Notes under the pieces: generated by a model | Database searches by the model: none | The model's input: the letters and a program-made list of their open reading frames with translations, nothing else | Told to the model about the DNA's origin: nothing | Position numbers and translations under genes: made by a program | Shown: piece by piece, positions 1,548 through 54,035 of the stretch | Position numbering within the stretch: the first letter of the stretch is position 1 | How the letters are laid out: each line of letters starts with the position of its first letter | DNA from: an uncultured Gammaproteobacteria bacterium | GTDB lineage: Bacteria; Patescibacteriota; Patescibacteriia; UBA11705; JABHMO01 | Direction: 5' to 3' | Assembly (NCBI GenBank): GCA_964590105.1 | Contig: CAZPYM010000001.1 | Coordinates: 431,782-495,781 of the forward strand | DNA: 64,000 nt

Positions 1548-3362
1548 CTACTTCCTTTTGAACATTTTTTCCAATTCACTGAACTTAAATTCTATGGCAC
1601 ATGGTCGGCCGTGTACACAGGTATAATGGTTGCTTAATTTTTCAAGATCAGCCACTAGCGCCTCCATTCCTTCAATCGATAATTCATCACCAAATTTAAT
1701 GGCGCTCTTACAAGCCATCATTTTAAAAATTTCTTCTACCGGTCCGCTTGGCAAATCATCCACTATCGCCATTTCAGTCAGTTCACCAAGTATCTGCAAA
1801 ATTATCTGCTTAATATCACTATTTACAAAAAACCGCGGTACGGCCGAAACAGCAAAACTATTGCCGCTGAAATTGGCAATTTCAAAACCCAGTCTTTCCA
1901 GCAGTTCCGCATTACTTTCAAATAAACTGATTTCTGTCGGCGCCAGTTCGATTTTTTGAGGCAAAAGCAATTTTTGGCTGGCCAATTTTCCGATCTGCCA
2001 TTCGCGGACAATCTTTTCATATTGGATTCTTTCTGAACTAGCATGTTGATCATATATTTTTATTGCTTCTTCTGTTTGCGCCACAATATAGGAATTCTGA
2101 ACCTGCCCTAAAATTTTGTATTCATCAACAAAAACTGGTTCATCGTTTTTAATCTCCGCAAAAACTTCTGGTCTCACTTCATCCGCCGTATGAACCATTC
2201 TCTGATTAAAATTATCAATTGCCTTTCGGAAATCCGTTGACATTATTTTGGGTTGAGAAAAATCCGAATTTGTATTTGGCCGATTAAATTTTTTGATTGG
2301 AATTTGTTCTTGTTTTTTTTCCAAAACATGCCCTATCGGCACAAACCCTTTAACTTCTTTGGCGCTAACCTGACGCTCGAGCTCATTTTCATCCAGAACA
2401 CCGGCGATAATTTGATAAATTGCCCGATAAATTATCTGCGGTTCTGAAAAACGCACTTCCATTTTTCGCGGATGCACATTGACATCAACGCTTATCGGAT
2501 CAATTATTAAATCAAAAATATAAACCGGATGTAAATCTCGCGCCAATAATGTGCCGAAAGCGGATTTAACTTGTTTGGAAATAATATACTCATTAACCGG
2601 CCTCTTATTAATAAACAAATACTGCAACTTGCGATTATTACGGCCGATAGCCGGCAAGCCAATATAACCTTTGACCTGGATCCCCTCGCGCTTCAAATCC
2701 ACCGGCAATAAATTGGCAGCAATATCATCGCCCAGGCAATCAGCAATCCGCGATGACAAGCCCGCCGCCGGAAACTGATAAACTGTTTTAGCGTTATGAA
2801 TCAACTTCCATGAGATTTCCGGATAAGCCAGACAATAATTCAAAAAAAGATCCACGATATGATTAAATTCAGTGACCGCGGTTTTTAAATATTTTTTTCT
2901 GGCCGGAATATTATAAAACAAATTTTTCACCTCCACGCTCGTGCCGTCCGCCGCGCCAATGTCTGCGACCGCCACTTGTCCGTTTTCCATTCTGAGGCTA
3001 GTACCGATGATTGATTCCTTGTTTTTCGTGACTAAACAAAATTCGCTGACTGCGGAAATACTGGACAGCGCTTCTCCGCGAAAACCCAGAGTTTTTATTT
3101 GATATAAATCTTCCGAAGAAGAAATTTTACTTGTTGAATGCTCGACCAGGCAGAGATTGGCGTCTTCCCGATCCATACCACAACCGTCGTCCGTCACTTT
3201 GATCAGATTTATTCCGCCGTTTTCCAATTCAACAATAATATTTTCCGCGCCGGCATCAAGCGCGTTTTCAACCAATTCTTTCATCACGGAAGCCGGCCGC
3301 TCCACCACTTCACCTGCCGCGATTTGATTGATTAATTCTTTTGGCAAAATTTTTATTGGCAT
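1548..3362 (-). CDS. mutL: DNA mismatch repair protein MutL
   Basis: N-terminal GHKL ATPase motifs (IAAGEVVERPASVMKELVENALDAGA, DDGCGM), MutL length and C-terminal dimerisation region. Confidence 0.9.
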   Translation of the reverse strand: MPIKILPKELINQIAAGEVVERPASVMKELVENALDAGAENIIVELENGGINLIKVTDDGCGMDREDANLCLVEHSTSKISSSEDLYQIKTLGFRGEALSSISAVSEFCLVTKNKESIIGTSLRMENGQVAVADIGAADGTSVEVKNLFYNIPARKKYLKTAVTEFNHIVDLFLNYCLAYPEISWKLIHNAKTVYQFPAAGLSSRIADCLGDDIAANLLPVDLKREGIQVKGYIGLPAIGRNNRKLQYLFINKRPVNEYIISKQVKSAFGTLLARDLHPVYIFDLIIDPISVDVNVHPRKMEVRFSEPQIIYRAIYQIIAGVLDENELERQVSAKEVKGFVPIGHVLEKKQEQIPIKKFNRPNTNSDFSQPKIMSTDFRKAIDNFNQRMVHTADEVRPEVFAEIKNDEPVFVDEYKILGQVQNSYIVAQTEEAIKIYDQHASSERIQYEKIVREWQIGKLASQKLLLPQKIELAPTEISLFESNAELLERLGFEIANFSGNSFAVSAVPRFFVNSDIKQIILQILGELTEMAIVDDLPSGPVEEIFKMMACKSAIKFGDELSIEGMEALVADLEKLSNHYTCVHGRPCAIEFKFSELEKMFKRK

Positions 3363-3372
3363 AAATATAGGT

Positions 3373-3427
3373 AGGGACAGTAGGGGCAGAATTATATTCT
3401 GCCCCTACTGTCCCTGCCCCTACTGTC
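3373..3427. repeat. perfect 20-bp inverted repeat (AGGGACAGTAGGGGCAGAAT / ATTCTGCCCCTACTGTCCCT, 3-nt loop) plus a third direct half-copy GCCCCTACTGTC, immediately 5-prime of the mutL start
   Basis: Read directly: 3373-3392 is the exact reverse complement of 3396-3415; the loop TAT and flanking bases spell TATAAT on the minus strand; 3416-3427 repeats 3401-3412. Confidence 0.8.
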
Positions 3428-3454
3428 ACTACCTTATCATATCTAAAAATTTTT

Positions 3455-3486
3455 GCAAAAAAAGGCGCCGTTACGTGTAACGACGC
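3455..3486 (-). terminator. rho-independent terminator downstream of the GC-rich 470-aa gene
   Basis: On the minus strand GCGTCGTTAC-ACG-GTAACGGCGC hairpin followed by CTTTTTTTGC (A-tract 3455-3463 on plus). Confidence 0.55.
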
Positions 3487-3538
3487 TCTTATTTATCGCC
3501 CCCCTAAGGGACTAATTTACTGTGCCTGTCTCACAGCC

Positions 3539-4951
3539 TCACAGCTTGATAATCCTGACTCCGAGGCCGGACAAACCTTCTTTCAACGAACTGAACAGCA
3601 TGGAAGCAAGCTCCCCGCCGGCCTGATTCGCCTTCGCGACTTCGTACACCGGCTTGTAGGCAGGATTCATGGCGGCCAGTTGCTCCAGCCTTTCAAAAAT
3701 CCGGTCAAAGACTGACGACAGGCGCTCCGTAAAGGCGTACTTGGCCGCCTCCTCGGCGAGAGCTGGACTCTCTTCCACCAGGGCAAGAATGCCTGCCGTG
3801 GAACAGTCGTCCGAAGTGAAGTATTCCTTCACCCGCGTCTCAATCGCCCGCGCTTCTTCGATCTTGGCGCGCTCCGCCTCGAACCGCGCCTGCAGATCAG
3901 TGAAGTACCCCCGATCGTCGCCCGCGCCGGCCAGCGCCGAAAGCTGTGCCCTCATCTGCGGCAACATTTCATCCTGCACCGCGAACGTGGCTACCGCCTT
4001 GCGGGGAAATGCCATGAGCGCATCCATGTCTCCGGTTGCCCAGGACGGCGGATTCACCGCCCGGAGCATTTCCATTTGCACCCGGACAATCTGCGCCTTG
4101 GTCTCATCCGAAAAGTCTGCGAGATCGCCCTCATAGTCGCCGCTCTCCATGGTCAGGTCCAGCTGATTCAGCGCAATGGCCTGGCGCAGAAAGCCAAGCA
4201 CCATGGCAAAGAAAAACTGATCCTGTTCCGCGCTCCGACCGATCGATTCGATTGTCTCCGCGAGCGAATGCAGGAGGCTGGGCATCCGATTGTTCACCAC
4301 CATTGCCAAACCGACGGCAGTGTCCGTATCCCGTGTTTCATTCATAAAATCGGCAATGAGATCAACAGCTTCCATCCTGATTTCGTCAGGACAGCAGCTG
4401 AAATCTCCATTTGCCTTGATCAACGCGTTGAAGCTTTCCTTGAAACCGGCTCGGCGTTCTACGAACGCCAAATACTTCAACGCTTCAGCGCTGCGCTCCG
4501 CGGACGGGCCGAGAGTACCGAGCGCCTTTTCCAAATCTGATCTGACCTGCGGCACAATACCGCTCAATTTCTCGAACACCGACTCCAGGATTACCTGTCC
4601 CAGGCACCTGTTGTGAATGAGCGGAACAACCATTGCGGCCACTCTTTGCTTGAGTTCTTCCGGCGCTGACACGAAATCGCCGTTCGCTTCACACAGATCC
4701 GCGAATTCGACGTACTGTTCCACGAACGCCGCAAGCTCGATCAGCCGATCGCGATTTTCTGCGCCGGCTTCAGCCGGTTTCCGCATTTCATCCAGCATAA
4801 ACGGCAGCAGGCCTTCGTCATGCTGACCCATCATTGCAGTGAAAATGCCTTCCCCATTGGCCAAATCATTTTGCAACTTTTCCATTTTCATTGCCAAGCA
4901 CTTTTTCAAGGCATGACAATCACGACACCTCGAATCTTCTTTCCTGATCAT
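3539..4951 (-). CDS. hypothetical protein, 470 aa, alpha-helical with internal repeats (ANGDF...PEEL / ANGDF...PDEI); GC-rich foreign-looking cassette between mutL and mutS
   Basis: Long ORF, about 57-60% GC against about 43% flanks; many spurious overlapping plus-strand ORFs, typical of GC-rich coding; perfect SD AAGGAGG 5 nt upstream of ATG (plus 4957-4963); no recognisable domain. Confidence 0.7.
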   Translation of the reverse strand: MIRKEDSRCRDCHALKKCLAMKMEKLQNDLANGEGIFTAMMGQHDEGLLPFMLDEMRKPAEAGAENRDRLIELAAFVEQYVEFADLCEANGDFVSAPEELKQRVAAMVVPLIHNRCLGQVILESVFEKLSGIVPQVRSDLEKALGTLGPSAERSAEALKYLAFVERRAGFKESFNALIKANGDFSCCPDEIRMEAVDLIADFMNETRDTDTAVGLAMVVNNRMPSLLHSLAETIESIGRSAEQDQFFFAMVLGFLRQAIALNQLDLTMESGDYEGDLADFSDETKAQIVRVQMEMLRAVNPPSWATGDMDALMAFPRKAVATFAVQDEMLPQMRAQLSALAGAGDDRGYFTDLQARFEAERAKIEEARAIETRVKEYFTSDDCSTAGILALVEESPALAEEAAKYAFTERLSSVFDRIFERLEQLAAMNPAYKPVYEVAKANQAGGELASMLFSSLKEGLSGLGVRIIKL

Positions 4952-5011
4952 GCGCGCCTCCTTGTTGTTGTTGCGCCAATCGACAAAACTGAAAAGAACA
5001 CTAGAAATAAG

Positions 5012-5040
5012 ATAGTATTATATTTTTAAATTTTTGTCAA
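5012..5040 (-). promoter_or_regulatory. candidate sigma70 promoter of the 470-aa gene (TTGACA-17-TACTAT on minus strand)
   Basis: Minus strand reads TTGACA (plus 5035-5040), a 17-nt spacer, then TACTAT (5012-5017), about 55 nt upstream of the SD/ATG. Confidence 0.45.
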
Positions 5041-5075: not shown

Positions 5076-7643
5076 TTACAACTCCACTAATTCATCCTTC
5101 AATTCCGCGATCTTCTGCAAAGCCTGGAGCGGCGTGAGTTCATCAACCTTCAAATTTGCCAATTCGCTCGAAACTTTCTTTTCTTTTGGCGTTGCTTGGA
5201 GCGCCAGACGGGTCTGCTCTGCTCTTTTTGTTAATTTAATTTCAGTCCGATTTTCAAGTCCGGCGAGGATTTCATTGGCGCGCGAAGTTAATTCCTCCGG
5301 CAGGCCGGCGATTTTTGCCACTTCAATTCCATAGCTCTCTGAAGTAGCGCCTTTAACAATTTTGTGAAGAAATACCACGCGCCCCTTGTCTTCGCTCACT
5401 GCCACGCAATAGTTTTCAGCCCGCTCAAGATTTTCCGCCACTGACGTCAATTCATGGTAATGAGTGGCAAATAAGGTTTTGGCGCGAAGATTATTGTGAA
5501 TATGCTCCATCATTGCCCAGGCAATGGAAACACCGTCGTAAGTGGAAGTGCCGCGTCCGGGCTCATCCAAAATTATAAGCGAATTTTTACTGGCATTATT
5601 TAAAATATTGGCCGCTTCCTGCATTTCCGCCATAAAAGTGGAAACGCCCTGCGTCAGATTGTCTGAAGCGCCGACCCGGGTAAAAATCCTGTCAACAACG
5701 CCGATTTCCGCGGCTTCAGCCGACACAAAACTACCGGTTTGCGCCATAAGAACGATCAACGCTGTCTGGCGCAAAAAACTTGATTTACCACTCATGTTCG
5801 GACCGGTCAGCAAAATAAATTCATTCTTGTCGTGATCCAAAACCAAATCATTTGGCACATATCTTTCTCTTTGAAATTTTTCTATCACCGGATGTCGACC
5901 GCTAGAAATTTTTATTTTTCCTGAATTATTCACAACAGGACGGCAAAAATTATTTTCACTTGCCAAGACCGCCAGGCCAAGAAAAATATCTAGGCGAGCA
6001 ATCAGATCAGTGGTTTTTTGCAAGGACGCAAAATACTTAACAATCTTTTCAACTGTTTCAAGAAAAATCTGGCGTTCAATATTACAAATTTTTTCTTCCG
6101 CGCCAAGTATTTTTTCTTCGTATTCTTTTAATTCAGGAGTAATGAATCGTTCGGCATTAACCAATGTTTGTTTGCGAATATAATCATCAGGCGCTTGATT
6201 CAGATTGGCATTGCTGATTTCAATATAATAGCCAAACACCCGATTAAACTTCACTTTCAAAGACGAAATACCGGTTCGCTCCACTTCCCTGGCCTGCATT
6301 TGCAAAAGCCAGTCTTTGCCGCCGCGGGAAATTTTCCGGAGTTCATCAAGCTCTTCATTATAATTATCCTTAATCATACCGCCCTCGACAATCAAGGCCG
6401 GTGGCTCCTCAACAAAAACTTCATCCAGCAATTGAACCAATTCTTCGTGATTGTCCAGTTCAGATTGAGTTTGAATCAACAGCGCTGATTTTTTTTGTTC
6501 AAGCAATCTTTTTATCTCAGGAACAATAGTTAAACTTTTTTTCAAACCCAAACAGTCGCGCGCGTTTCCGCGTCCACAGCCAAGCCGCGCCATGAGGCGC
6601 TCCAAATCAGCCATTAACTTTAGTTTTTCAATTAAACTTTTTATTAAAATTAAATCTTGTTTAATTTCTCCGACCGCTTCGAGCCGCTTTTCAATATACT
6701 CCGGATTTAATAACGGATAAAATAGCCAGCGCCTGAACATCCGGCCACCCATACTGGTCGTTGTTTTGTCAATTACGGACAATAAAGAACCCTGGAATTC
6801 ACCGGAAAAGTTCGCCCGGAATAATTCCAAATTTCTGATTGTCGCCTCGTCCAAAACCATTCGATCGGAAAAATTGTAGCGGCTAATCTTGGTAATATGC
6901 GCCAATTCTGATTTTTGATTGTCTTTTAAATATGCAAGTAACCGACCGGCGGCGCAGATTGCCTGTTCCATGTTTTCCAGTCCAAATGACTGCAGATTTT
7001 TCATTTTAAAATGCCGCGTCAGAATATTGTACGGTTTTTCAAAAACTGAAAGATCAAAAACATTAACATGACTTTGCTCCGCCACAAAATCGCGGCAACG
7101 GGTGTCATTGGCCAAACTTTTATTAATAATTACTTCAGTGGCTCTGATTCGGAACAATTCATTTTTTAAAACATTTAAATCACTGATTTCAGCCGCTAAA
7201 AACTCACCGGTTGTCAGATCAGCCACCGCCAGCCCCCAGATATTTTTTTCAAGCGTCAAGCTGGCAATATAATTATTTGAATTGTTTTGCAAAGTTGAAT
7301 TCACGAGCGTTGTACCTGGCGTAACAACCTGAGTTACTTCACGTTTCACAATTCCGGGCAATGAAGGATCGCTCACCTGGTCGCAGATCGCCACTCTTTT
7401 TCCGGCTTTTAATAATTTAGCCAGATAACTTTCGAGAGCATGATGCGGCACGCCGCACATGGGCGTTTCATTCGCCGCCCCCTTGTGTCTCGCTGTCAAG
7501 ACAATATCCAAAATACCTGAAGCCTGCCGGGCATCCTCTCCAAAAAGTTCGTAAAAATCGCCCAAACGAAAAAACAACAACTCATTAGGATGCTTTTCTT
7601 TTATTTCCCGATATTGTTTCAACATTGGAGTTAGTTCGCTCAT
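5076..7643 (-). CDS. mutS: DNA mismatch repair protein MutS
   Basis: MSELTPMLKQYREIKEKHPNELLFFRLGDFYELFGEDA mismatch-binding N-terminus; Walker A GPNMSGKSSFLRQ; DEPGRGTSTYDG; 855 aa. Confidence 0.92.
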   Translation of the reverse strand: MSELTPMLKQYREIKEKHPNELLFFRLGDFYELFGEDARQASGILDIVLTARHKGAANETPMCGVPHHALESYLAKLLKAGKRVAICDQVSDPSLPGIVKREVTQVVTPGTTLVNSTLQNNSNNYIASLTLEKNIWGLAVADLTTGEFLAAEISDLNVLKNELFRIRATEVIINKSLANDTRCRDFVAEQSHVNVFDLSVFEKPYNILTRHFKMKNLQSFGLENMEQAICAAGRLLAYLKDNQKSELAHITKISRYNFSDRMVLDEATIRNLELFRANFSGEFQGSLLSVIDKTTTSMGGRMFRRWLFYPLLNPEYIEKRLEAVGEIKQDLILIKSLIEKLKLMADLERLMARLGCGRGNARDCLGLKKSLTIVPEIKRLLEQKKSALLIQTQSELDNHEELVQLLDEVFVEEPPALIVEGGMIKDNYNEELDELRKISRGGKDWLLQMQAREVERTGISSLKVKFNRVFGYYIEISNANLNQAPDDYIRKQTLVNAERFITPELKEYEEKILGAEEKICNIERQIFLETVEKIVKYFASLQKTTDLIARLDIFLGLAVLASENNFCRPVVNNSGKIKISSGRHPVIEKFQRERYVPNDLVLDHDKNEFILLTGPNMSGKSSFLRQTALIVLMAQTGSFVSAEAAEIGVVDRIFTRVGASDNLTQGVSTFMAEMQEAANILNNASKNSLIILDEPGRGTSTYDGVSIAWAMMEHIHNNLRAKTLFATHYHELTSVAENLERAENYCVAVSEDKGRVVFLHKIVKGATSESYGIEVAKIAGLPEELTSRANEILAGLENRTEIKLTKRAEQTRLALQATPKEKKVSSELANLKVDELTPLQALQKIAELKDELVEL

Positions 7644-7889: not shown

Positions 7890-8219
7890 CTACTTTTGAT
7901 CGCTAACATCTGCCTGTTCCTTTTTTAATTCTTCCGCCCACTGTTCTTCTTTTTCTCCCTGATTTTTTGGTTCAGCTTTTTTAGCATTTTCTATTTCTTC
8001 CTTTTTAACTTCAGCGCCGGACTCGCCAGCTTCATACAAATCTTTCGGTTCCAGCTTTTTTTCTAAATCTTTTTTCTGGCTATCCTCCATTTCAGCCATG
8101 GCTTCGCATTTATTGCAGTAATCAGGATATTTCAACGATTGCTTGACTCCGGCCAGCGCTGAAACTTTGGCAAACAAACCTTCAATTGGCGCTTTGCAGT
8201 ATTTACATTTTTTTGTCAT
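7890..8219 (-). CDS. hypothetical small protein with N-terminal CxxC...CxxC zinc ribbon and a K/E-rich tail
   Basis: MTKKCKYCKAPIEG...YCNKCEAM, four Cys in ribbon spacing, then a low-complexity charged tail. Confidence 0.5.
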   Translation of the reverse strand: MTKKCKYCKAPIEGLFAKVSALAGVKQSLKYPDYCNKCEAMAEMEDSQKKDLEKKLEPKDLYEAGESGAEVKKEEIENAKKAEPKNQGEKEEQWAEELKKEQADVSDQK

Positions 8220-8328
8220 AAAATTTATACTAATAATTATATAGGCGGATAATGCGAATATTATTACTCCTTTGTAACCATCTCATTGACTTCCATAATT
8301 TTTATTCTCTATCCTAACGAGCAATATG

Positions 8329-8583
8329 TTAATTTTCTTCAACTTGTTTATTGTGTCTTTGTAACTCTTTAATCCTGGCTTTTAAATTCTCTGCTTCTTG
8401 TTCAAGGTTTTGAAGTATAACTTTGCATGAACGAATTTTTTCCTTTAATTCCCTTTTTGGCTCCGGATCTTTTTTCTGGTCCAACGGCTCTTCAAGCTCT
8501 TTTAAATTTTCTCTTTTTTGTTTTATCACTTGTTCTATTATACTCAATTCCTCTTCCAATGCTCTAAGCTGACTTTCAATCAT
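8329..8583 (-). CDS. hypothetical coiled-coil protein (84 aa)
   Basis: Heptad-like E/K/L-rich sequence; no recognised family. Confidence 0.45.
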   Translation of the reverse strand: MIESQLRALEEELSIIEQVIKQKRENLKELEEPLDQKKDPEPKRELKEKIRSCKVILQNLEQEAENLKARIKELQRHNKQVEEN

Positions 8584-8647
8584 TTCAATTGAGTCGTGAC
8601 GTGGCGGTAATTAAAATCTCCGTATATTTTTATTTAAGATTAATAAT

Positions 8648-9298
8648 TTATTTAGCTTTTCCTTGCAAAAATTTATCTCTAAGTTTTATCACACAATCTC
8701 TTAATCCATAATTAGAAGTTAAAAACCTGGGATCAGATTCACCCTGCACAACTTTTATTATTACCGGTTTTAAATAATCCTGCACCTCTAATTCTCTTCC
8801 TTGAGAATCATATAATTTATTTTCATACAAATCTAAAGAGCTGAAAAGATCTTCAACTGTTTTAGAATGAGCGATATTATATTGTAATTTAGTTCTTTCT
8901 ATAATTAAGGATACTTCAGTAAAATTAGGTATATTATGTCCACTAAGATAAATATCTGTTATTAAAGCCGATATATCCACTAATTGACCTTTCTCATCTT
9001 TATTAAAAATTTTTCCAATTCTTATTGTGCCTTTATTATATTTTTTTACCTCTGGCGATAGATTTTGGATATTACCCATTTCCACAATAACACCTCTATT
9101 ATCATAATAAAAATTTACTCCGGCGCAACTAAACTTTCTACCATTAACATCTCGACAGCCAGCATTCCCTCCAACAGATTTTTGGCTTAATACTTGTCGC
9201 ATTCTTTTGCCAATAAATTCCAAATTGGCGGAGACTAACATGTCTCTATCATTTTCTAAAGCTTCTGACGAACTTAGGACTTCTCTATTTGCATTCAT
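8648..9298 (-). CDS. hypothetical protein (216 aa)
   Basis: ORF of host-like composition in tandem with the two small genes above; no motif recognised. Confidence 0.5.
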   Translation of the reverse strand: MNANREVLSSSEALENDRDMLVSANLEFIGKRMRQVLSQKSVGGNAGCRDVNGRKFSCAGVNFYYDNRGVIVEMGNIQNLSPEVKKYNKGTIRIGKIFNKDEKGQLVDISALITDIYLSGHNIPNFTEVSLIIERTKLQYNIAHSKTVEDLFSSLDLYENKLYDSQGRELEVQDYLKPVIIKVVQGESDPRFLTSNYGLRDCVIKLRDKFLQGKAK

Positions 9299-11532: not shown

Positions 11533-11581
11533 TAACTTTTGATCAATAATGTTCATTGCTCTATACAGTGGGAGGGAAATC

Positions 11582-12010
11582 ATGACGACTGATTCTGACA
11601 TGAAAGAGTACGAGGCCAGAAAGCAGAAGGCGCGACAAGCGGCCGAGGCGGAAGCTCGGCGAATCGCGGACGCGGAAACAGCCAAACTGGCCGGCGTCAG
11701 CCGGCACGTGCCGAAACAGGACTTCACCGACATGTGGCAAGAAGTGTACGACGTGGCCATTGCCAACATCATGGAATCATTCGAATTCGAAGAAGACATG
11801 CGCGACATTGACGCACAGATGCAGTACCCGTTCCCCGATGAAGCGCCGGATGCATTTGAACACGGATTCGACGCAGAAGGCAAGCTCGGCCTTCGCCGCC
11901 GGAATGTGTTCACCGACGCGGATTGCATGGACATGGCCATGTGTGAGGAGGAGCGCTGGAACGACGACTGGGTCATGACCGAAGAAGCATGGGGGCTGGA
12001 TCGCGATTGA
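11582..12010 (+). CDS. highly acidic hypothetical protein (142 aa; 37 D/E, net charge about -20, aromatic-rich), GC-rich cassette; DNA-mimic / anti-restriction candidate
   Basis: ATG 11582 preceded by GGAGGG 11571-11576 (5-nt spacing); GC about 58%; composition counted from the translation; own promoter and terminator. Confidence 0.7.
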   Translation: MTTDSDMKEYEARKQKARQAAEAEARRIADAETAKLAGVSRHVPKQDFTDMWQEVYDVAIANIMESFEFEEDMRDIDAQMQYPFPDEAPDAFEHGFDAEGKLGLRRRNVFTDADCMDMAMCEEERWNDDWVMTEEAWGLDRD

Positions 12011-28026: not shown

Positions 28027-28060
28027 CCGCCCATGGCAGACGCCGGGCGGCTTTGTTGTT
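28027..28060 (-). terminator. rho-independent terminator of the metallophosphoesterase cassette
   Basis: GCCGCCC...GGGCGGC stem (28027-28051); on the minus strand it is followed by CTTTTTTTTTGCC (A-tract 28013-28024 on plus). Confidence 0.6.
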
Positions 28061-28800
28061 CAACTTCCTTCATACAGTCGCTTGGTAAGAATACCGTCGA
28101 GATTGAGCTTTTTCATTTCAGCAACCGTTTCATCAATCCTGTACGAAACGCGCCGATACTCTGCCAAGAGCTTGTGGCGGAAAAAATCCACCACCATGTA
28201 ACAGGCGCGCGGGTCATCGTCGCGCGGCTGGCCGACGCTACCCACATTGATGGCGAACTTCGACGGGAAACGAACCTCCAGCGGCGAATGTGACATACCA
28301 AGCTTTACTAATCCATGCTTGATGTGGTAGATTGCCGGCTGATGAGTATGGCCAAAGAACAAAACCGGCGTCGCAACAGCCGTCAACTGCTGGCGGGCGA
28401 TATGTTCGTTGCGAATATACTCCCAGCCGTCAGGATCTGTCCAGTTCGCGTGAACCATTGAAATTCCCAGGTTGGGAATATCCATGGCCATTTCCAGTCC
28501 CCGCAAAAAGGCCAGATCATCAGCCTTGAGCATTTTGGCATTCTGCGCCATTGCCAACAACGCCGGGTAATTATGATTGGCCATGTTGCAGCCATGCCCC
28601 ACGCCAAAATCATGATTTCCCATGAGCGTCAGATTGCAATGCTCCCTGGCCCAAGCAATGCATTCCCGCGGAAACGGACCATAACCGGTCACATCGCCGA
28701 GGCAGTAGATCACATCAACGCCCATTGTGGCAATGTCTTTCGCAACGGCTCGCAGAGCCGGCCAATTGCTGTGAATGTCCGACAATATCGCCGCTCTCAT
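28060..28800 (-). CDS. calcineurin-like metallophosphoesterase (GC-rich cassette)
   Basis: Motifs DIHSN (D-x-H), LGDVTGYGP (GDxxDRG-like), LMGNHD (GNHD/E), FFGHTHQ; GC about 55%; SD AGGAGGA 5 nt upstream of ATG. Confidence 0.75.
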   Translation of the reverse strand: MRAAILSDIHSNWPALRAVAKDIATMGVDVIYCLGDVTGYGPFPRECIAWAREHCNLTLMGNHDFGVGHGCNMANHNYPALLAMAQNAKMLKADDLAFLRGLEMAMDIPNLGISMVHANWTDPDGWEYIRNEHIARQQLTAVATPVLFFGHTHQPAIYHIKHGLVKLGMSHSPLEVRFPSKFAINVGSVGQPRDDDPRACYMVVDFFRHKLLAEYRRVSYRIDETVAEMKKLNLDGILTKRLYEGS

Positions 28801-46747: not shown

Positions 46748-47131
46748 ATGAAAGAGCTCGGCCGCCATGTGTTGATTGAATTTTATGAATGCGCCACCGA
46801 GGCGCTGAACAACCTAGAATTCATTGAAGAACAAATGCTCGAAGCCGCCAGATTGACGGGCGCGACCATTGTCGGCAAAATCTTCCACCGATTCAGTCCA
46901 CACGGTGTTTCAGGCGCAGTGGTGATTGCTGAGTCGCACCTCACGATTCACACCTGGCCGGAATACGACTACGCGGCAGTTGATCTTTTCACCTGCGGAC
47001 CAACCGTTGATCCGTGGAAAGCTTTCACTCACCTGCAAACCGCAATCGGTTCCAAACGCACTTCTCAGACTGAGATCCGACGCGGGCTTTTTCCACAAAA
47101 CGTCAGCCACAAGCCCGGCGCTGACGGATGA
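46748..47131 (+). CDS. speH: S-adenosylmethionine decarboxylase proenzyme (small SpeH type), GC-rich cassette
   Basis: [11 protein letters not shown]..., self-processing site region ...[11 protein letters not shown]; perfect SD AAGGAGGTG; GC about 52%. Confidence 0.8.
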
Positions 47132-52839: not shown

Positions 52840-52910
52840 GTATTGATTTAATCTGTTCATTTCACTAACCGTCTCAGGCAGCTATGCCACAAATAGCAAA
52901 GGGAGAAAAC

Positions 52911-54035
52911 ATGGGAAAGAAAGCGTGGACATTCGCAATTCTGCTGGGGCTTGTAGCTTCTATTTCCGTACCATGGATTGTTATCAAGATCGTTGCCAAG
53001 ACGCAGAGCCCCGAGACGCACGAGCCGACGATGATGGAGAACGGCGACAACCCGGTAGAGTCCGGCCAGGACGAGCCCACAATGATGGAAAACAGCGACA
53101 ACCCGGTAGAGTCAAGCCAGGACGAACCCACGACTCTTCGCCTGCCGATGTACGTACAAACGACGGTCCAGGCGCGCCTCCTCACGATGGAGGAACTGGC
53201 CTTGGACTTTCCGGAAAACTATGACATTGAACAACGGGGTGACTATCACAGAATCGCCAAGAACTGCACGGCGACCGAACTGGCCACCAAGGCTGATTGC
53301 CTGCCGCTCACCGGCTGGTTCAAGAAGGCTTACTTGAAGTCTGACGGTTCCATTACCGTGGACTTCCAATGCAATCCAAACGACTCGCGAATGTGTACCG
53401 TGCTTTTGCGCGGACCTGTAAGCGATGGAACTGTCTACGGCTGTGGTCTTCCGGATGCGGCCCTCGAAGATATCCTCGTCATGGACTTACTTGGCGCCGG
53501 ATATAGCCTTCTGAAAGACGGGGCAGTCGAATACATCCGCTACGGCGGCAAAGACCTAACCGGCGGCCACCATTCATTCTTCATCAAGGACGGCCTGATC
53601 TATGGTAGGTACGGAACCGATGAAGAGCTCGTGCGCCGCGCTGACGGCTCGTTTGTCCGCGAAAGCGGCTCGTTCGCCGAGCAGATCAGGAAAGAGGCTC
53701 AGGCTAAGAAAGTGCTGGACTTTCTCGGCTCCGGATACTCCATGCGCTACGACGCCGTGTTCGAGTTTATCCAATACGACAAGCAGGACGTGGTGCCTCG
53801 CGGCTACCATTACTACATCCTCCGCGATGATCGGATCTACGGCATTCTCGGCGCGACCGAAGAGGAAGTTCTCGCCAACCGGCCGAAGATTCCGCCAGAA
53901 AAAAGGGATATGATCGGTCAATCATGTCTTTGTCCGGATCTCGGACTTGGGACATGGGTGGAACTCGGGTACAAAGAGCTGGTCTGCGTTCATCTGCCGG
54001 AAAGAGGTCCCATCTGCCATTCCAACTGCTTCTAG
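52911..54035 (+). CDS. secreted hypothetical repeat protein (GC-rich cassette; alternative upstream start 52884)
   Basis: Signal peptide MGKKAWTFAILLGLVASISVPWIV; tandem EPTMMENxDNPVESxQD repeats; duplicated about 55-aa module (LLGAGYSLLKDGAVEYIRYGGKD... / FLGSGYSMRYDAVFEFIQYDKQD...); SD GGGAGA before 52911; GC about 57%. Confidence 0.65.
   Translation: MGKKAWTFAILLGLVASISVPWIVIKIVAKTQSPETHEPTMMENGDNPVESGQDEPTMMENSDNPVESSQDEPTTLRLPMYVQTTVQARLLTMEELALDFPENYDIEQRGDYHRIAKNCTATELATKADCLPLTGWFKKAYLKSDGSITVDFQCNPNDSRMCTVLLRGPVSDGTVYGCGLPDAALEDILVMDLLGAGYSLLKDGAVEYIRYGGKDLTGGHHSFFIKDGLIYGRYGTDEELVRRADGSFVRESGSFAEQIRKEAQAKKVLDFLGSGYSMRYDAVFEFIQYDKQDVVPRGYHYYILRDDRIYGILGATEEEVLANRPKIPPEKRDMIGQSCLCPDLGLGTWVELGYKELVCVHLPERGPICHSNCF

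What the first reader, a model, noticed from the sequence alone, without database searches (positions are those of the whole stretch)
3455..5040. Unknown 470-aa GC-rich protein inserted between mutL and mutS
mutS and mutL are co-oriented with only this gene between them. The insert is about 57-60% GC, has a perfect SD (AAGGAGG), a TTGACA-type promoter and a hairpin plus T-tract terminator. It encodes a 470-aa, probably all-alpha protein with internal repeats (ANGDFVSAPEELKQRV / ANGDFSCCPDEIRMEAV) and an N-terminal Cys cluster (CRDCHALKKC). I do not recognise it. Its position inside a mismatch-repair pair and its foreign composition make it the top candidate for a novel function, for example a modulator of repair, an anti-defence protein or a selfish element riding on the mutS-mutL operon.
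Basis: partly seen in the sequence, partly recalled or inferred. Interest (0 to 1): 0.72.

Follow-up and report, generated by a model that had tools for sequence, protein, structure and literature searches.

The report
Clade-specific orphan gene between mutS and mutL
The GC-rich gene between mutS and mutL is a real, separately transcribed gene for an uncharacterised helical-repeat protein; a small group of ultra-small (CPR) bacteria has inherited it in this same position rather than acquiring it recently, and its function and odd base composition remain unexplained.

Summary
A 470-aa ORF (3539-4951, minus strand) lies between mutS and mutL with its own promoter, Shine-Dalgarno site and terminator. 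Its GC3 is 0.67, against about 0.41 for its neighbours.

The "foreign insert" reading does not hold. An exhaustive search of 1.8 billion proteins found four divergent full-length homologues (about 23-38% identity). All are encoded directly after mutS and, where the contig reaches that far, before mutL. Promoter and leader motif are conserved, and the grouping of the homologues matches the MutS tree.

A close relative (84% identity) shows equal synonymous divergence in this gene and in mutL (dS 0.315 vs 0.316). The gene's dN/dS is 0.30, so it is co-inherited, under purifying selection and fast-evolving. Other members of the clade carry different genes in the same slot.

With a five-sequence alignment AlphaFold2 gives pLDDT 82. 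The model is an acidic all-helical repeat protein, and the sequences share an invariant N-terminal C-x2-C-x5-C motif. Nothing matches in Pfam, NCBIfam, PHROGs, PADLOC, PDB, phages or plasmids.

High GC3 persists in three lineages (0.83 vs 0.29 in one), with excess mRNA structure. Neither is explained. A link to mismatch repair is unproven.

The parts
3539..4951 (-). Coding sequence of the 470-aa protein 'X'. It has an N-terminal C-x2-C-x5-C motif (C9, C12, C18, plus invariant H44), two ~85-aa 'GDF' helical repeats (res ~64-138 and ~155-236), and a conserved C-terminal module (res ~345-441, FFTSD..LALVEESP..AE..AK.AF).
4957..4963 (-). Shine-Dalgarno sequence AAGGAGG, five bases upstream of the ATG
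   Evidence: also conserved in L082 and L084
5012..5040 (-). Promoter of X: TTGACA, 17-base spacer, TACTAT
   Evidence: aligned with TTGACA-17-TAnAAT in six other loci
4991..5000 (-). Conserved leader motif TGTTCTTTTC, about 12 nt downstream of the -10 box. TGTTCnTT is conserved in all five X lineages and in the mini-X gene of L089, and TTCGTT occupies the same position in L092. It occurs only once in the window.
   Evidence: no conserved RNA structure around it
3457..3486 (-). Intrinsic terminator of X: a 9-bp hairpin followed by a T-tract. The same element precedes the mutL promoter in relatives, including the X-less locus L002.
3431..3458 (-). mutL's own promoter, TTGCAA-16-(TG)nTAAGGT. It resembles the X promoter: the 21-nt stretches 3435-3455 and 5016-5036 are 81% identical.
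3373..3415 (-). 20-bp hairpin in the mutL 5' leader, plus a third copy of ACAGTAGGGGCAG at 3414-3426. L082 and L002 have hairpins of different sequence at this place, and the close relative L094 has unrelated sequence.
5076..7643 (-). mutS (855 aa), upstream neighbour
1548..3362 (-). mutL (604 aa). It carries the endonuclease motif DQHASSERIQYE, that is DQHA-x2-E-x4-E. Downstream neighbour.

Best explanation
X is a lineage-specific accessory gene of a small clade of CPR/Patescibacteria named Kuenenbacteria or Falkowbacteria in public records. It has been inherited vertically in the slot between mutS and mutL. It is not a recent foreign insertion.

Shown:
- It is a separate transcription unit with its own sigma-70-type promoter, conserved leader motif, strong ribosome-binding site and terminator. 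mutL then starts from its own promoter.
- The product is a soluble, acidic protein (pI 4.7) predicted to be all helices.
- It contains two tandem GDF repeats and a conserved C-terminal module.
- The extreme N-terminus carries an invariant C-x2-C-x5-C (+His44) motif.
- It is under purifying selection but changes about 13 times faster than MutL at the protein level, and it is absent from several related lineages.

Inferred:
- The cysteine motif binds a metal (Zn or an Fe-S cluster).
- The protein acts as a protein-binding scaffold or adaptor, not as an enzyme or a DNA binder.
- Its partner is unknown. I do not consider its position between mutS and mutL enough to assign it to mismatch repair.
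For: Same slot in every lineage where it is found:
- L082: mutS'-X-mutL-infA-rpsM.
- L083 and L087, Ca. Falkowbacteria MBI5077630.1: mutS-X-mutL.
- L084: mutS'-X.
- L085, L088 and a 236-kb JGI contig: mutS-X-217aa-mutL.
- L094, a close relative: X-mutL.

Vertical descent:
- X identities (38% window-L082, 42% L083-L084, 23-26% for the rest) give the same grouping as MutS (78-82% in the two close pairs, 63-73% in the rest).
- Promoter, spacing and leader motif are conserved.
- Window vs L094: dS is 0.315 in X and 0.316 in mutL. dN is 0.095 vs 0.007, and dN/dS is 0.30 vs 0.02.

No sign of mobility:
- There is no tRNA in the window.
- There is no match in viral contigs, PHROGs, PADLOC, BFVD folds (103), phage records (110) or plasmid records (111).

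Protein:
- AlphaFold2 with the five-sequence alignment gives pLDDT 81.8, pTM 0.65 and 22 helices.
- The best fold matches are ARM/HEAT/importin-type and designed helical repeats.
- The internal repeat is supported at E 4.8e-7.
- S7, C9, C12, L15, C18 and H44 are invariant.
- pI is 4.5-6.0 across the family, with negative GRAVY.

Dispensable, and the slot is variable:
- L002, L091, L092 and a JGI contig lack X.
- L089 and L090 carry other genes plus two short relatives.
Against: - Function rests on fold class and a sequence motif only. No partner, metal or activity is shown.
- I could not inspect the model coordinates, so neither a solenoid shape nor a clustered Cys/His site is verified.
- Persistent high GC3 in a vertically inherited gene is not predicted by this explanation. 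GC3 is 0.67 vs 0.41 here, 0.84 vs 0.59 in L082 and 0.83 vs 0.29 in L085. It needs an extra cause.
- X-bearing lineages are interleaved with X-less ones on the MutS tree. Vertical descent therefore needs at least three losses, and several tree nodes are weak (12-66% bootstrap).
- Agreement of the two groupings with five taxa has about a 1-in-15 chance expectation.
Confidence: 0.6

Rival explanations
1. X is a clade-specific accessory factor or regulator of mismatch repair. For example, it could be a metal-binding adaptor that links MutS to the MutL endonuclease or to the replisome in these MutH-less bacteria.
For: - X always sits between mutS and mutL, across lineages whose MutS proteins are only about 65% identical.
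- MutL here is the endonuclease type, with motif DQHA-x2-E-x4-E, and such proteins need activating partners (established knowledge of MutL endonucleases).
- The C-x2-C-x5-C spacing equals the last three cysteines of the Fe-S loop of EndoIII/MutY repair enzymes (from memory, so a lead only).
Against: - X has its own promoter and terminator, and mutL has its own promoter.
- X is missing in at least four related lineages that keep mutS and mutL.
- The same slot holds lipoproteins, a 47-aa membrane micro-ORF and a candidate RNA in other lineages. The whole alaS...mutS-mutL-infA-rpsM region is syntenic anyway, so position alone says little.
- X evolves 13 times faster than MutL at non-synonymous sites. 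That is unusual for a partner of a conserved machine.
- It is acidic, so it is unlikely to bind DNA.
Confidence: 0.18
2. X is a conflict or host-interaction protein: a rapidly evolving helical-repeat effector or immunity factor of an episymbiotic bacterium. On this reading its position next to the repair genes is incidental.
For: - Fast protein evolution with dN/dS 0.30.
- Patchy distribution and turnover of the slot.
- Helical-repeat architecture, typical of protein-binding effectors.
- Tandem short paralogues in some lineages.
Against: - No signal peptide or transmembrane segment.
- No match to defence or phage libraries.
- dN/dS below 1 over the only measurable segment. Nothing shows positive selection.
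Confidence: 0.15
3. X is a recently acquired foreign, selfish or anti-defence cassette inserted into the mutS-mutL operon.
For: - GC3 is 0.25 above the neighbours, with a sharp boundary.
- The nearest reference genome, L002, lacks X.
- The cassette is bracketed by two similar promoter sequences.
- Other GC-rich single-gene islands exist in the window.
Against: - dS equals that of mutL in a close relative that also carries X.
- Orthologues occupy the same slot in five deep lineages, with conserved promoter and leader.
- Two lineages have X without any GC excess.
- There are no mobility genes, and no homologues in phages, plasmids or viral contigs.
- Only five protein clusters exist among 1.8 billion representatives, all in this clade. 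No donor pool is visible.
Confidence: 0.04
4. The X transcript has a second role as a structured RNA, or its nucleic-acid structure is itself under selection. On this reading that selection maintains the GC-rich synonymous sites.
For: - X is more structured than synonymous shuffles that preserve protein, codon usage and dinucleotides: z -2.1 (window), -3.9 (L082), -6.6 (L085), with 0 of 40 shuffles as stable. Controls give -0.5 to -1.0 (first version).
- A 430-nt segment of L085 X folds with z -6.8.
- In L092 the homologous promoter and leader drive a ~400-nt non-coding GC-rich segment that folds with z -9.05.
Against: - For the window gene itself the signal is weak: z -2.1, and -1.7 for a 430-nt segment against -1.6 for a mutL control.
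- The structure is diffuse and not conserved between lineages.
- X in L087 has no GC excess and no signal.
- The L092 segment has no detectable similarity to X.
Confidence: 0.1

Closest known systems
ARM/HEAT-type alpha-solenoid repeat proteins (importins, beta-catenin, designed helical repeat proteins)
   Same: - All-helical architecture of about 22 helices with tandem internal repeats.
- Soluble and acidic, as expected for a protein-binding scaffold.
   Different: - No sequence-profile match to any ARM, HEAT, TPR or Sel1 model.
- X carries an N-terminal cysteine motif that these families lack.
Fe-S cluster cysteine spacing of EndoIII/MutY (C-x6-C-x2-C-x5-C) and WhiB-like proteins (C-xn-C-x2-C-x5-C)
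   Same: The invariant C-x2-C-x5-C spacing. Some members have a fourth cysteine, C-x2-C-x2-C-x5-C, in P0003 and in orf217.
   Different: - No homology to either family.
- The motif lies in the first 18 residues, with no invariant upstream cysteine. The fourth ligand would have to be His44 or a variable residue.
- The comparison is from memory of the motifs. Metal binding was not tested.
mutS-mutL operons of Bacillus-type (MutH-less) bacteria
   Same: mutS and mutL are adjacent and co-oriented, and MutL carries the endonuclease motif.
   Different: Here the two genes are separate transcription units, divided by a slot of 0.4-2.3 kb. The content of the slot differs between related lineages.
Variable accessory-gene slots between conserved core genes (hotspots of gene turnover)
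   Same: The flanks are syntenic across the clade (alaS...mutS and mutL-infA-rpsM-rpsK-rpsD-rpoA). The slot holds X, short X relatives, lipoproteins, a micro-ORF, a candidate RNA or almost nothing.
   Different: One occupant, X, persists with its promoter across deep divergences and shows vertical co-inheritance. No integrase or repeat signature of an integration hotspot was found.

Membership tests
ARM/HEAT/TPR alpha-solenoid repeat families | Sequence-profile match to a curated repeat model | tested here: not met
   No Pfam family at E <= 1 for X. The relatives give only sub-threshold noise.
ARM/HEAT/TPR alpha-solenoid repeat families | Tandem helical repeat units stacked into a superhelix | tested here: inconclusive
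Mobile, selfish or phage-derived cassette | Adjacent integrase, transposase or recombinase, a tRNA target, or target-site duplication | tested here: not met
   The neighbours are mutS and mutL, and the window has no tRNA. The only flanking direct repeat is the pair of similar promoters.
Mobile, selfish or phage-derived cassette | Homologues on phages, plasmids or viral contigs | tested here: not met
   no match
Mobile, selfish or phage-derived cassette | Divergence history different from the flanking core genes | tested here: not met
   dS is 0.315 in X and 0.316 in mutL against L094. The grouping of X by identity matches the MutS tree.
Known mismatch-repair and associated proteins (MutH, MutS2, Vsr, UvrD, RecJ, beta-clamp) | Sequence homology to the family | tested here: not met
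   No match in Pfam, NCBIfam or PDB sequence searches.
Anti-phage defence or anti-defence proteins | Match to PADLOC or PHROG models, or to a viral fold | tested here: not met
   only noise (best E 0.012-0.07)
Zinc-binding anti-sigma factors (ZAS, H-x3-C-x2-C) | The H-x3-C-x2-C motif in an anti-sigma domain | tested here: not met
   The motif in X is C-x2-C-x5-C, with no preceding H-x3. No zf-HC2 Pfam match.
Fe-S cluster proteins with C-x2-C-x5-C spacing (EndoIII/MutY loop, WhiB-like) | Four conserved cluster ligands and homology to the family | tested here: not met
   Three invariant cysteines plus H44. A fourth cysteine occurs only in some members. No homology.
Fe-S cluster proteins with C-x2-C-x5-C spacing (EndoIII/MutY loop, WhiB-like) | Bound metal cofactor | not testable with these tools
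   Needs purified protein (UV-visible spectrum, EPR, ICP-MS).
The X family defined here (P0001-P0005, P0007, P0008, L094 fragment) | Length of about 470-495 aa, N-terminal S-x-C-x2-C-x2-L-x2-C, two GDF repeats, a C-terminal LAL(V/M)xES..AE..AK.AF module, encoded directly after mutS | tested here: met

The most novel reading that the evidence does not exclude
X, and the short Cys-motif relatives in the same slot, would be a previously unknown metal-binding helical-repeat partner of the MutS-MutL machinery in a CPR clade. Its coding sequence would be held GC-rich and unusually structured by selection at the nucleic-acid level, in three lineages including one whose genome has GC3 of 0.29. In one relative, L092, only a highly structured non-coding RNA remains behind the same promoter. 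On that reading the slot encodes a dual protein/RNA regulatory element tied to DNA repair.
Probability: 0.08. Interest if true: 0.75.

Novelty: new variant of a known kind. Interest (0 to 1): 0.4.

Why it matters
If the best explanation holds, this is one more lineage-specific orphan gene of CPR bacteria. It is useful mainly as a defined family: an alignment, a confident model, a diagnostic DNA pattern and a fixed genomic address, for a group where most genes have no annotation.

Two things go beyond the ordinary.

First, a gene that is demonstrably co-inherited with its neighbours keeps third-codon-position G+C far above the genome (0.83 vs 0.29 in one lineage). That breaks the usual rule that deviant composition means recent transfer. 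It offers a small test case for separating biased gene conversion from selection on mRNA structure.

Second, the mutS-mutL gap in this clade is a variable slot behind a conserved promoter. If X or its short relatives do touch mismatch repair, that would be a new accessory component in organisms whose repair systems are unstudied.

Tried and rejected
Searches that found nothing:
- Word-indexed protein search with X alone and with the family alignment returned only X itself and P0005.
The two-sequence alignment found nothing in viral or JGI metagenome contigs.
- Pfam, PHROGs, PADLOC, NCBIfam and PDB sequence searches of X, its relatives and the short paralogues gave nothing above noise.
- tblastn found no remnant of X in the X-less loci and no paralogue elsewhere in the window.
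- Literature searches on CPR mismatch repair, on GC-rich genes in Patescibacteria, and on Kuenenbacteria/Falkowbacteria found nothing relevant.

Structure:
- The single-sequence AlphaFold2 model was useless (pLDDT 43).
- The afdb50 fold library was unavailable.

Ideas tested and dropped:
- That the other two GC-rich orphan islands of the window are related to X. They are not.
- That the leader contains a conserved RNA hairpin. No pairs were predicted.
- That a specific conserved hairpin explains the mRNA-structure signal. The local structures differ between lineages.
- That the structure signal is an artefact of GC-rich genes. Controls from GC-rich genomes gave z between -1.4 and +0.1. The Metallophos gene's apparent signal vanished with the dinucleotide-preserving shuffle.
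- That high GC3 reflects codon preference of highly expressed genes. infA, rpsM and dnaK are not GC3-rich to that degree.

Technical failures:
- L085 vs L088 and L083 vs L087 turned out to be the same strains, so they gave no population information.
- One script failed an assertion and was corrected. One timed out.
Full report
**1. What is in the sequence**

Window 3539..4951 (minus strand) is a 470-codon ORF. It is the only long ORF between mutS (5076..7643) and mutL (1548..3362), and all three share the same strand. MutS and MutL are full length by Pfam. MutL carries DQHASSERIQYE, the DQHA-x2-E-x4-E endonuclease motif of MutH-less systems (the meaning of the motif is from established knowledge).

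Upstream of the ORF lie TTGACA-17-TACTAT (5040-5012) and AAGGAGG five bases before the ATG. Downstream lies a 9-bp hairpin plus T7 (3486-3465). mutL then has its own promoter (about 3458-3431) and a 20-bp perfect hairpin in its leader (3415-3373).

The coding sequence is 55.8% G+C, with GC1/GC2/GC3 of 0.61/0.40/0.67. mutL has GC3 of 0.40 and mutS 0.43, and the median over 57 ORFs of the window is 0.415. The excess starts and ends with the coding sequence and holds along its whole length.

**2. It is a real gene with a small family**

The word-indexed search found only the protein itself. The exhaustive phmmer search of 1.84 billion representatives found four genuine full-length relatives and one repetitive false positive:
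- P0002: 480 aa, 38% identity, E 2.5e-83.
- P0003: 491 aa, 26%.
- P0004: 485 aa, 24%.
- P0005: 477 aa, E 2.7e-10.

P0007, a cluster mate of P0003, is 'hypothetical protein HZB94_04595, Candidatus Falkowbacteria bacterium'.

The alignment has these invariant residues: S7, C9, C12, L15, C18 and H44 near the N-terminus, the two F of the 'GDF' motifs, and a C-terminal module around LAL(V/M)xES..AE..AK.AF. The two GDF segments are true repeats (hhalign 92.5%, E 4.8e-7).

No member matches any model in Pfam, NCBIfam, PHROGs or PADLOC, or any PDB sequence.

**3. Where the relatives are encoded**

Every relative lies directly downstream of mutS and, where the contig is long enough, upstream of mutL-infA-rpsM. 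This holds for L082, L083/L087, L084 and L085/L086/L088, and for a 236-kb JGI contig whose wider order is alaS...mutS-X-217aa-mutL-infA-rpsM-rpsK-rpsD-rpoA. The MutS proteins of these lineages are only 65-82% identical.

The X promoter, its spacing and a downstream motif TGTTCnTT are conserved in all five lineages. The motif occurs once in the window, and no conserved RNA hairpin surrounds it.

X identities group (window, L082) and (L083/L087, L084), with L085 apart. MutS gives the same grouping.

**4. A close relative settles co-inheritance**

I wrote a degenerate DNA pattern for the C-terminal motif. It hit only X genes among the 92 loci in hand. In the JGI metagenome collection it retrieved the 1.2-kb contig L094. 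L094 carries the last 135 codons of an X gene 84% identical to the window's, the intergenic region and the start of mutL.

| Nei-Gojobori estimate | X | mutL |
|---|---|---|
| dS | 0.315 | 0.316 |
| dN | 0.095 | 0.007 |
| dN/dS | 0.30 | 0.02 |

The two genes therefore share one divergence history. X is under purifying selection but accepts amino-acid changes about 13 times faster.

The X segment has GC3 of 0.73-0.74 in both genomes, and mutL has 0.43-0.45 in both.

**5. The slot is variable**

| Locus | MutL identity to the window | Content between mutS and mutL |
|---|---|---|
| L002, Ca. Kuenenbacteria bin.190, nearest species representative | 65-66% | 404-bp gap with a 46-aa membrane micro-ORF |
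| L089/L090, Falkowbacteria | 61% | Homologous micro-ORF (76% identity, E 2e-18), a lipoprotein and two short Cys-motif proteins |
| L091 | 61% | A lipoprotein and a 131-aa gene on the opposite strand |
| JGI contig (MutL P0028) | 58% | About 1 kb with no called gene |
| L092 | 57% | 562 bp: a promoter and leader homologous to X's, then a ~400-nt G+C-rich non-coding segment and a terminator |

The L092 segment folds with z = -9.05 and has no Rfam match.

On a MutS tree the X-bearing lineages are interleaved with X-less ones. X is thus either ancestral with at least three losses, or it was gained at least three times at one spot. The conserved promoter and leader, the matching groupings and the equal dS favour ancestry with losses.

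About 55 MutL clusters belong to this clade, against five X clusters. X is therefore probably a minority trait, unless divergent forms escaped the single-sequence search.

**6. Short relatives**

L085 has a 217-aa gene right after X, and L089 has genes of 203 and 147 aa.
- All three start with the same C-x2-C-x5-7-C motif, and their first ~60 residues are homologous to each other (E 3e-9 and 1e-7).
- The 217-aa protein also matches the C-terminal module of X: hhalign E 3.7e-5, and it is the only non-X hit of the X profile among 19,065 ORFs, E 0.007.
- The N-terminal motifs align in register, but without statistical support.
- The 203-aa gene has the X-type promoter and leader motif.

I regard these as probable truncated paralogues. 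This is an inference.

**7. The protein**

With the five-sequence alignment AlphaFold2 gives mean pLDDT 81.8 and pTM 0.65, with 22 helices and no strands. The first ~50 residues are the least confident.

The proteins are acidic (pI 4.5-6.0) and hydrophilic, with no hydrophobic segment. That argues against DNA binding or membrane location.

The invariant Cys triad plus His44 suggests a metal site. Its spacing equals part of the Fe-S motifs of EndoIII/MutY and WhiB. That comparison is from memory and is only a lead.

**8. The unexplained composition**

| Locus | GC3 of X | GC3 of flanking genes |
|---|---|---|
| Window | 0.67 | 0.40-0.43 |
| L082 | 0.84 | 0.57-0.60 |
| L085 | 0.83 | 0.29 |
| L083/L087 | 0.51 | 0.49-0.54 |
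| L084 | 0.47 | 0.51 |

At four-fold sites in L085, G+C is 0.84 in X and 0.25 in mutL. In L085 the 217-aa gene next to X has GC3 of 0.62. The slot genes of L089 are also above their flanks (0.39-0.51 vs 0.27-0.29).

Given sections 3 and 4, recent transfer is not the cause.

In the three GC-rich versions, the arrangement of synonymous codons gives more local RNA structure than shuffles that keep the protein, the codons and the dinucleotides:
- Window: z -2.1.
- L082: z -3.9.
- L085: z -6.6.
- None of 40 shuffles reached the native value in any of the three.
- Controls gave -0.5 to -1.0 (first version).

A 430-nt piece of L085 X has z -6.8 against ordinary dinucleotide shuffles. The window's piece is at control level. 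The signal is diffuse and not conserved in position.

Selection on mRNA structure and GC-biased gene conversion in a recombination-prone slot are both possible. Neither is shown.

**9. Verdict**

The finding is a genuine, unannotated and very narrowly distributed protein family with a fixed address between mutS and mutL.
- Its idea of a repair modulator remains an untested possibility, weakened by the separate transcription unit, the several X-less relatives, the other occupants of the slot and the fast evolution.
- The most likely description is a dispensable, vertically inherited, metal-binding helical-repeat adaptor of unknown partner.
- The persistent GC3 excess with extra mRNA structure is the one truly odd feature, and it is what keeps the interest above routine.

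Noticed in passing
window 11549-12010 (+) and 52884-54035 (+): Two more single-gene G+C-rich islands (GC3 0.69 and 0.67), both on the strand opposite to almost all other genes, with no Pfam match. The 383-aa product has an N-terminal hydrophobic helix and a tandem repeat EPTMMENxDNPVESxQD. Neither is related to X.
   Followed up: partly
window 28060-28800 (-) and 46748-47131 (+): Two further GC3 outliers that do have known families: a Metallophos_2 phosphoesterase (GC3 0.61) and an S-adenosylmethionine decarboxylase (GC3 0.58). Accessory-looking genes in this genome tend to be G+C-richer than the core, the reverse of the usual pattern.
   Followed up: partly
window 3373-3428: The mutL leader holds a 20-bp perfect hairpin built from ACAGTAGGGGCAG, with a third direct copy next to it. 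L082 and L002 have long hairpins of unrelated sequence at the same place. In the close relative L094 the stretch is replaced by a longer, repeat-rich sequence (GTGGAAT/GTGGAAC/GTGGGAC). This is a hypervariable structured leader of mutL.
   Followed up: partly
L092 4474-4960: In a relative without X, the mutS-mutL slot has the X-type promoter and leader followed by a ~400-nt G+C-rich segment with no credible ORF and a terminator. It folds with MFE -182 kcal/mol and z -9.05. It has no Rfam match even at E <= 1 and no similarity to the other loci. It is a candidate new structured RNA.
   Followed up: partly
L002 6479-6619; L090 2724-2867: A 46/47-aa membrane micro-ORF directly after mutS is conserved between a Kuenenbacteria and a Falkowbacteria genome (76% identity overall, 92% over the C-terminal KRWRIRRAAARGENMYS part). 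It is absent from the X-bearing loci.
   Followed up: partly
L085 2978-3631; L089 3748-4359 and 4485-4928: Short (147-217 aa) proteins with the same N-terminal C-x2-C-x5-7-C motif as X are encoded in the same slot, in tandem with X or with each other. They are probably truncated paralogues. Their GC3 is also above the flanks.
   Followed up: yes
L094 (rc) ~643-830, corresponding to window ~3362-3150: In the close relative the mutL start is GTG instead of ATG, and a 32-nt stretch (window ~3277-3246) is missing, which shifts the frame. This is either a mutL pseudogene or an assembly error in a low-coverage 1.2-kb contig.
   Followed up: no
window 7890-9298 (-): The stretch between alaS and mutS holds three small orphan genes. 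One is a 109-aa protein with C-x2-C...C-x2-C (zinc-ribbon-like). One is an 84-aa coiled-coil protein. One is a very A+T-rich 216-aa ORF (GC3 0.19). Relatives carry different genes here (an ECF sigma factor plus 505- and 111-aa genes, or a NYN-domain gene), so this is a second variable slot.
   Followed up: no
window 3435-3459 and 5016-5040: The promoters of mutL and of X are near-copies, with 17 of 21 bases identical in the core. They bracket the 1581-bp X cassette as a direct repeat. Recombination between them would delete exactly X and leave an L002-like site, which is a possible route for the repeated losses.
   Followed up: no
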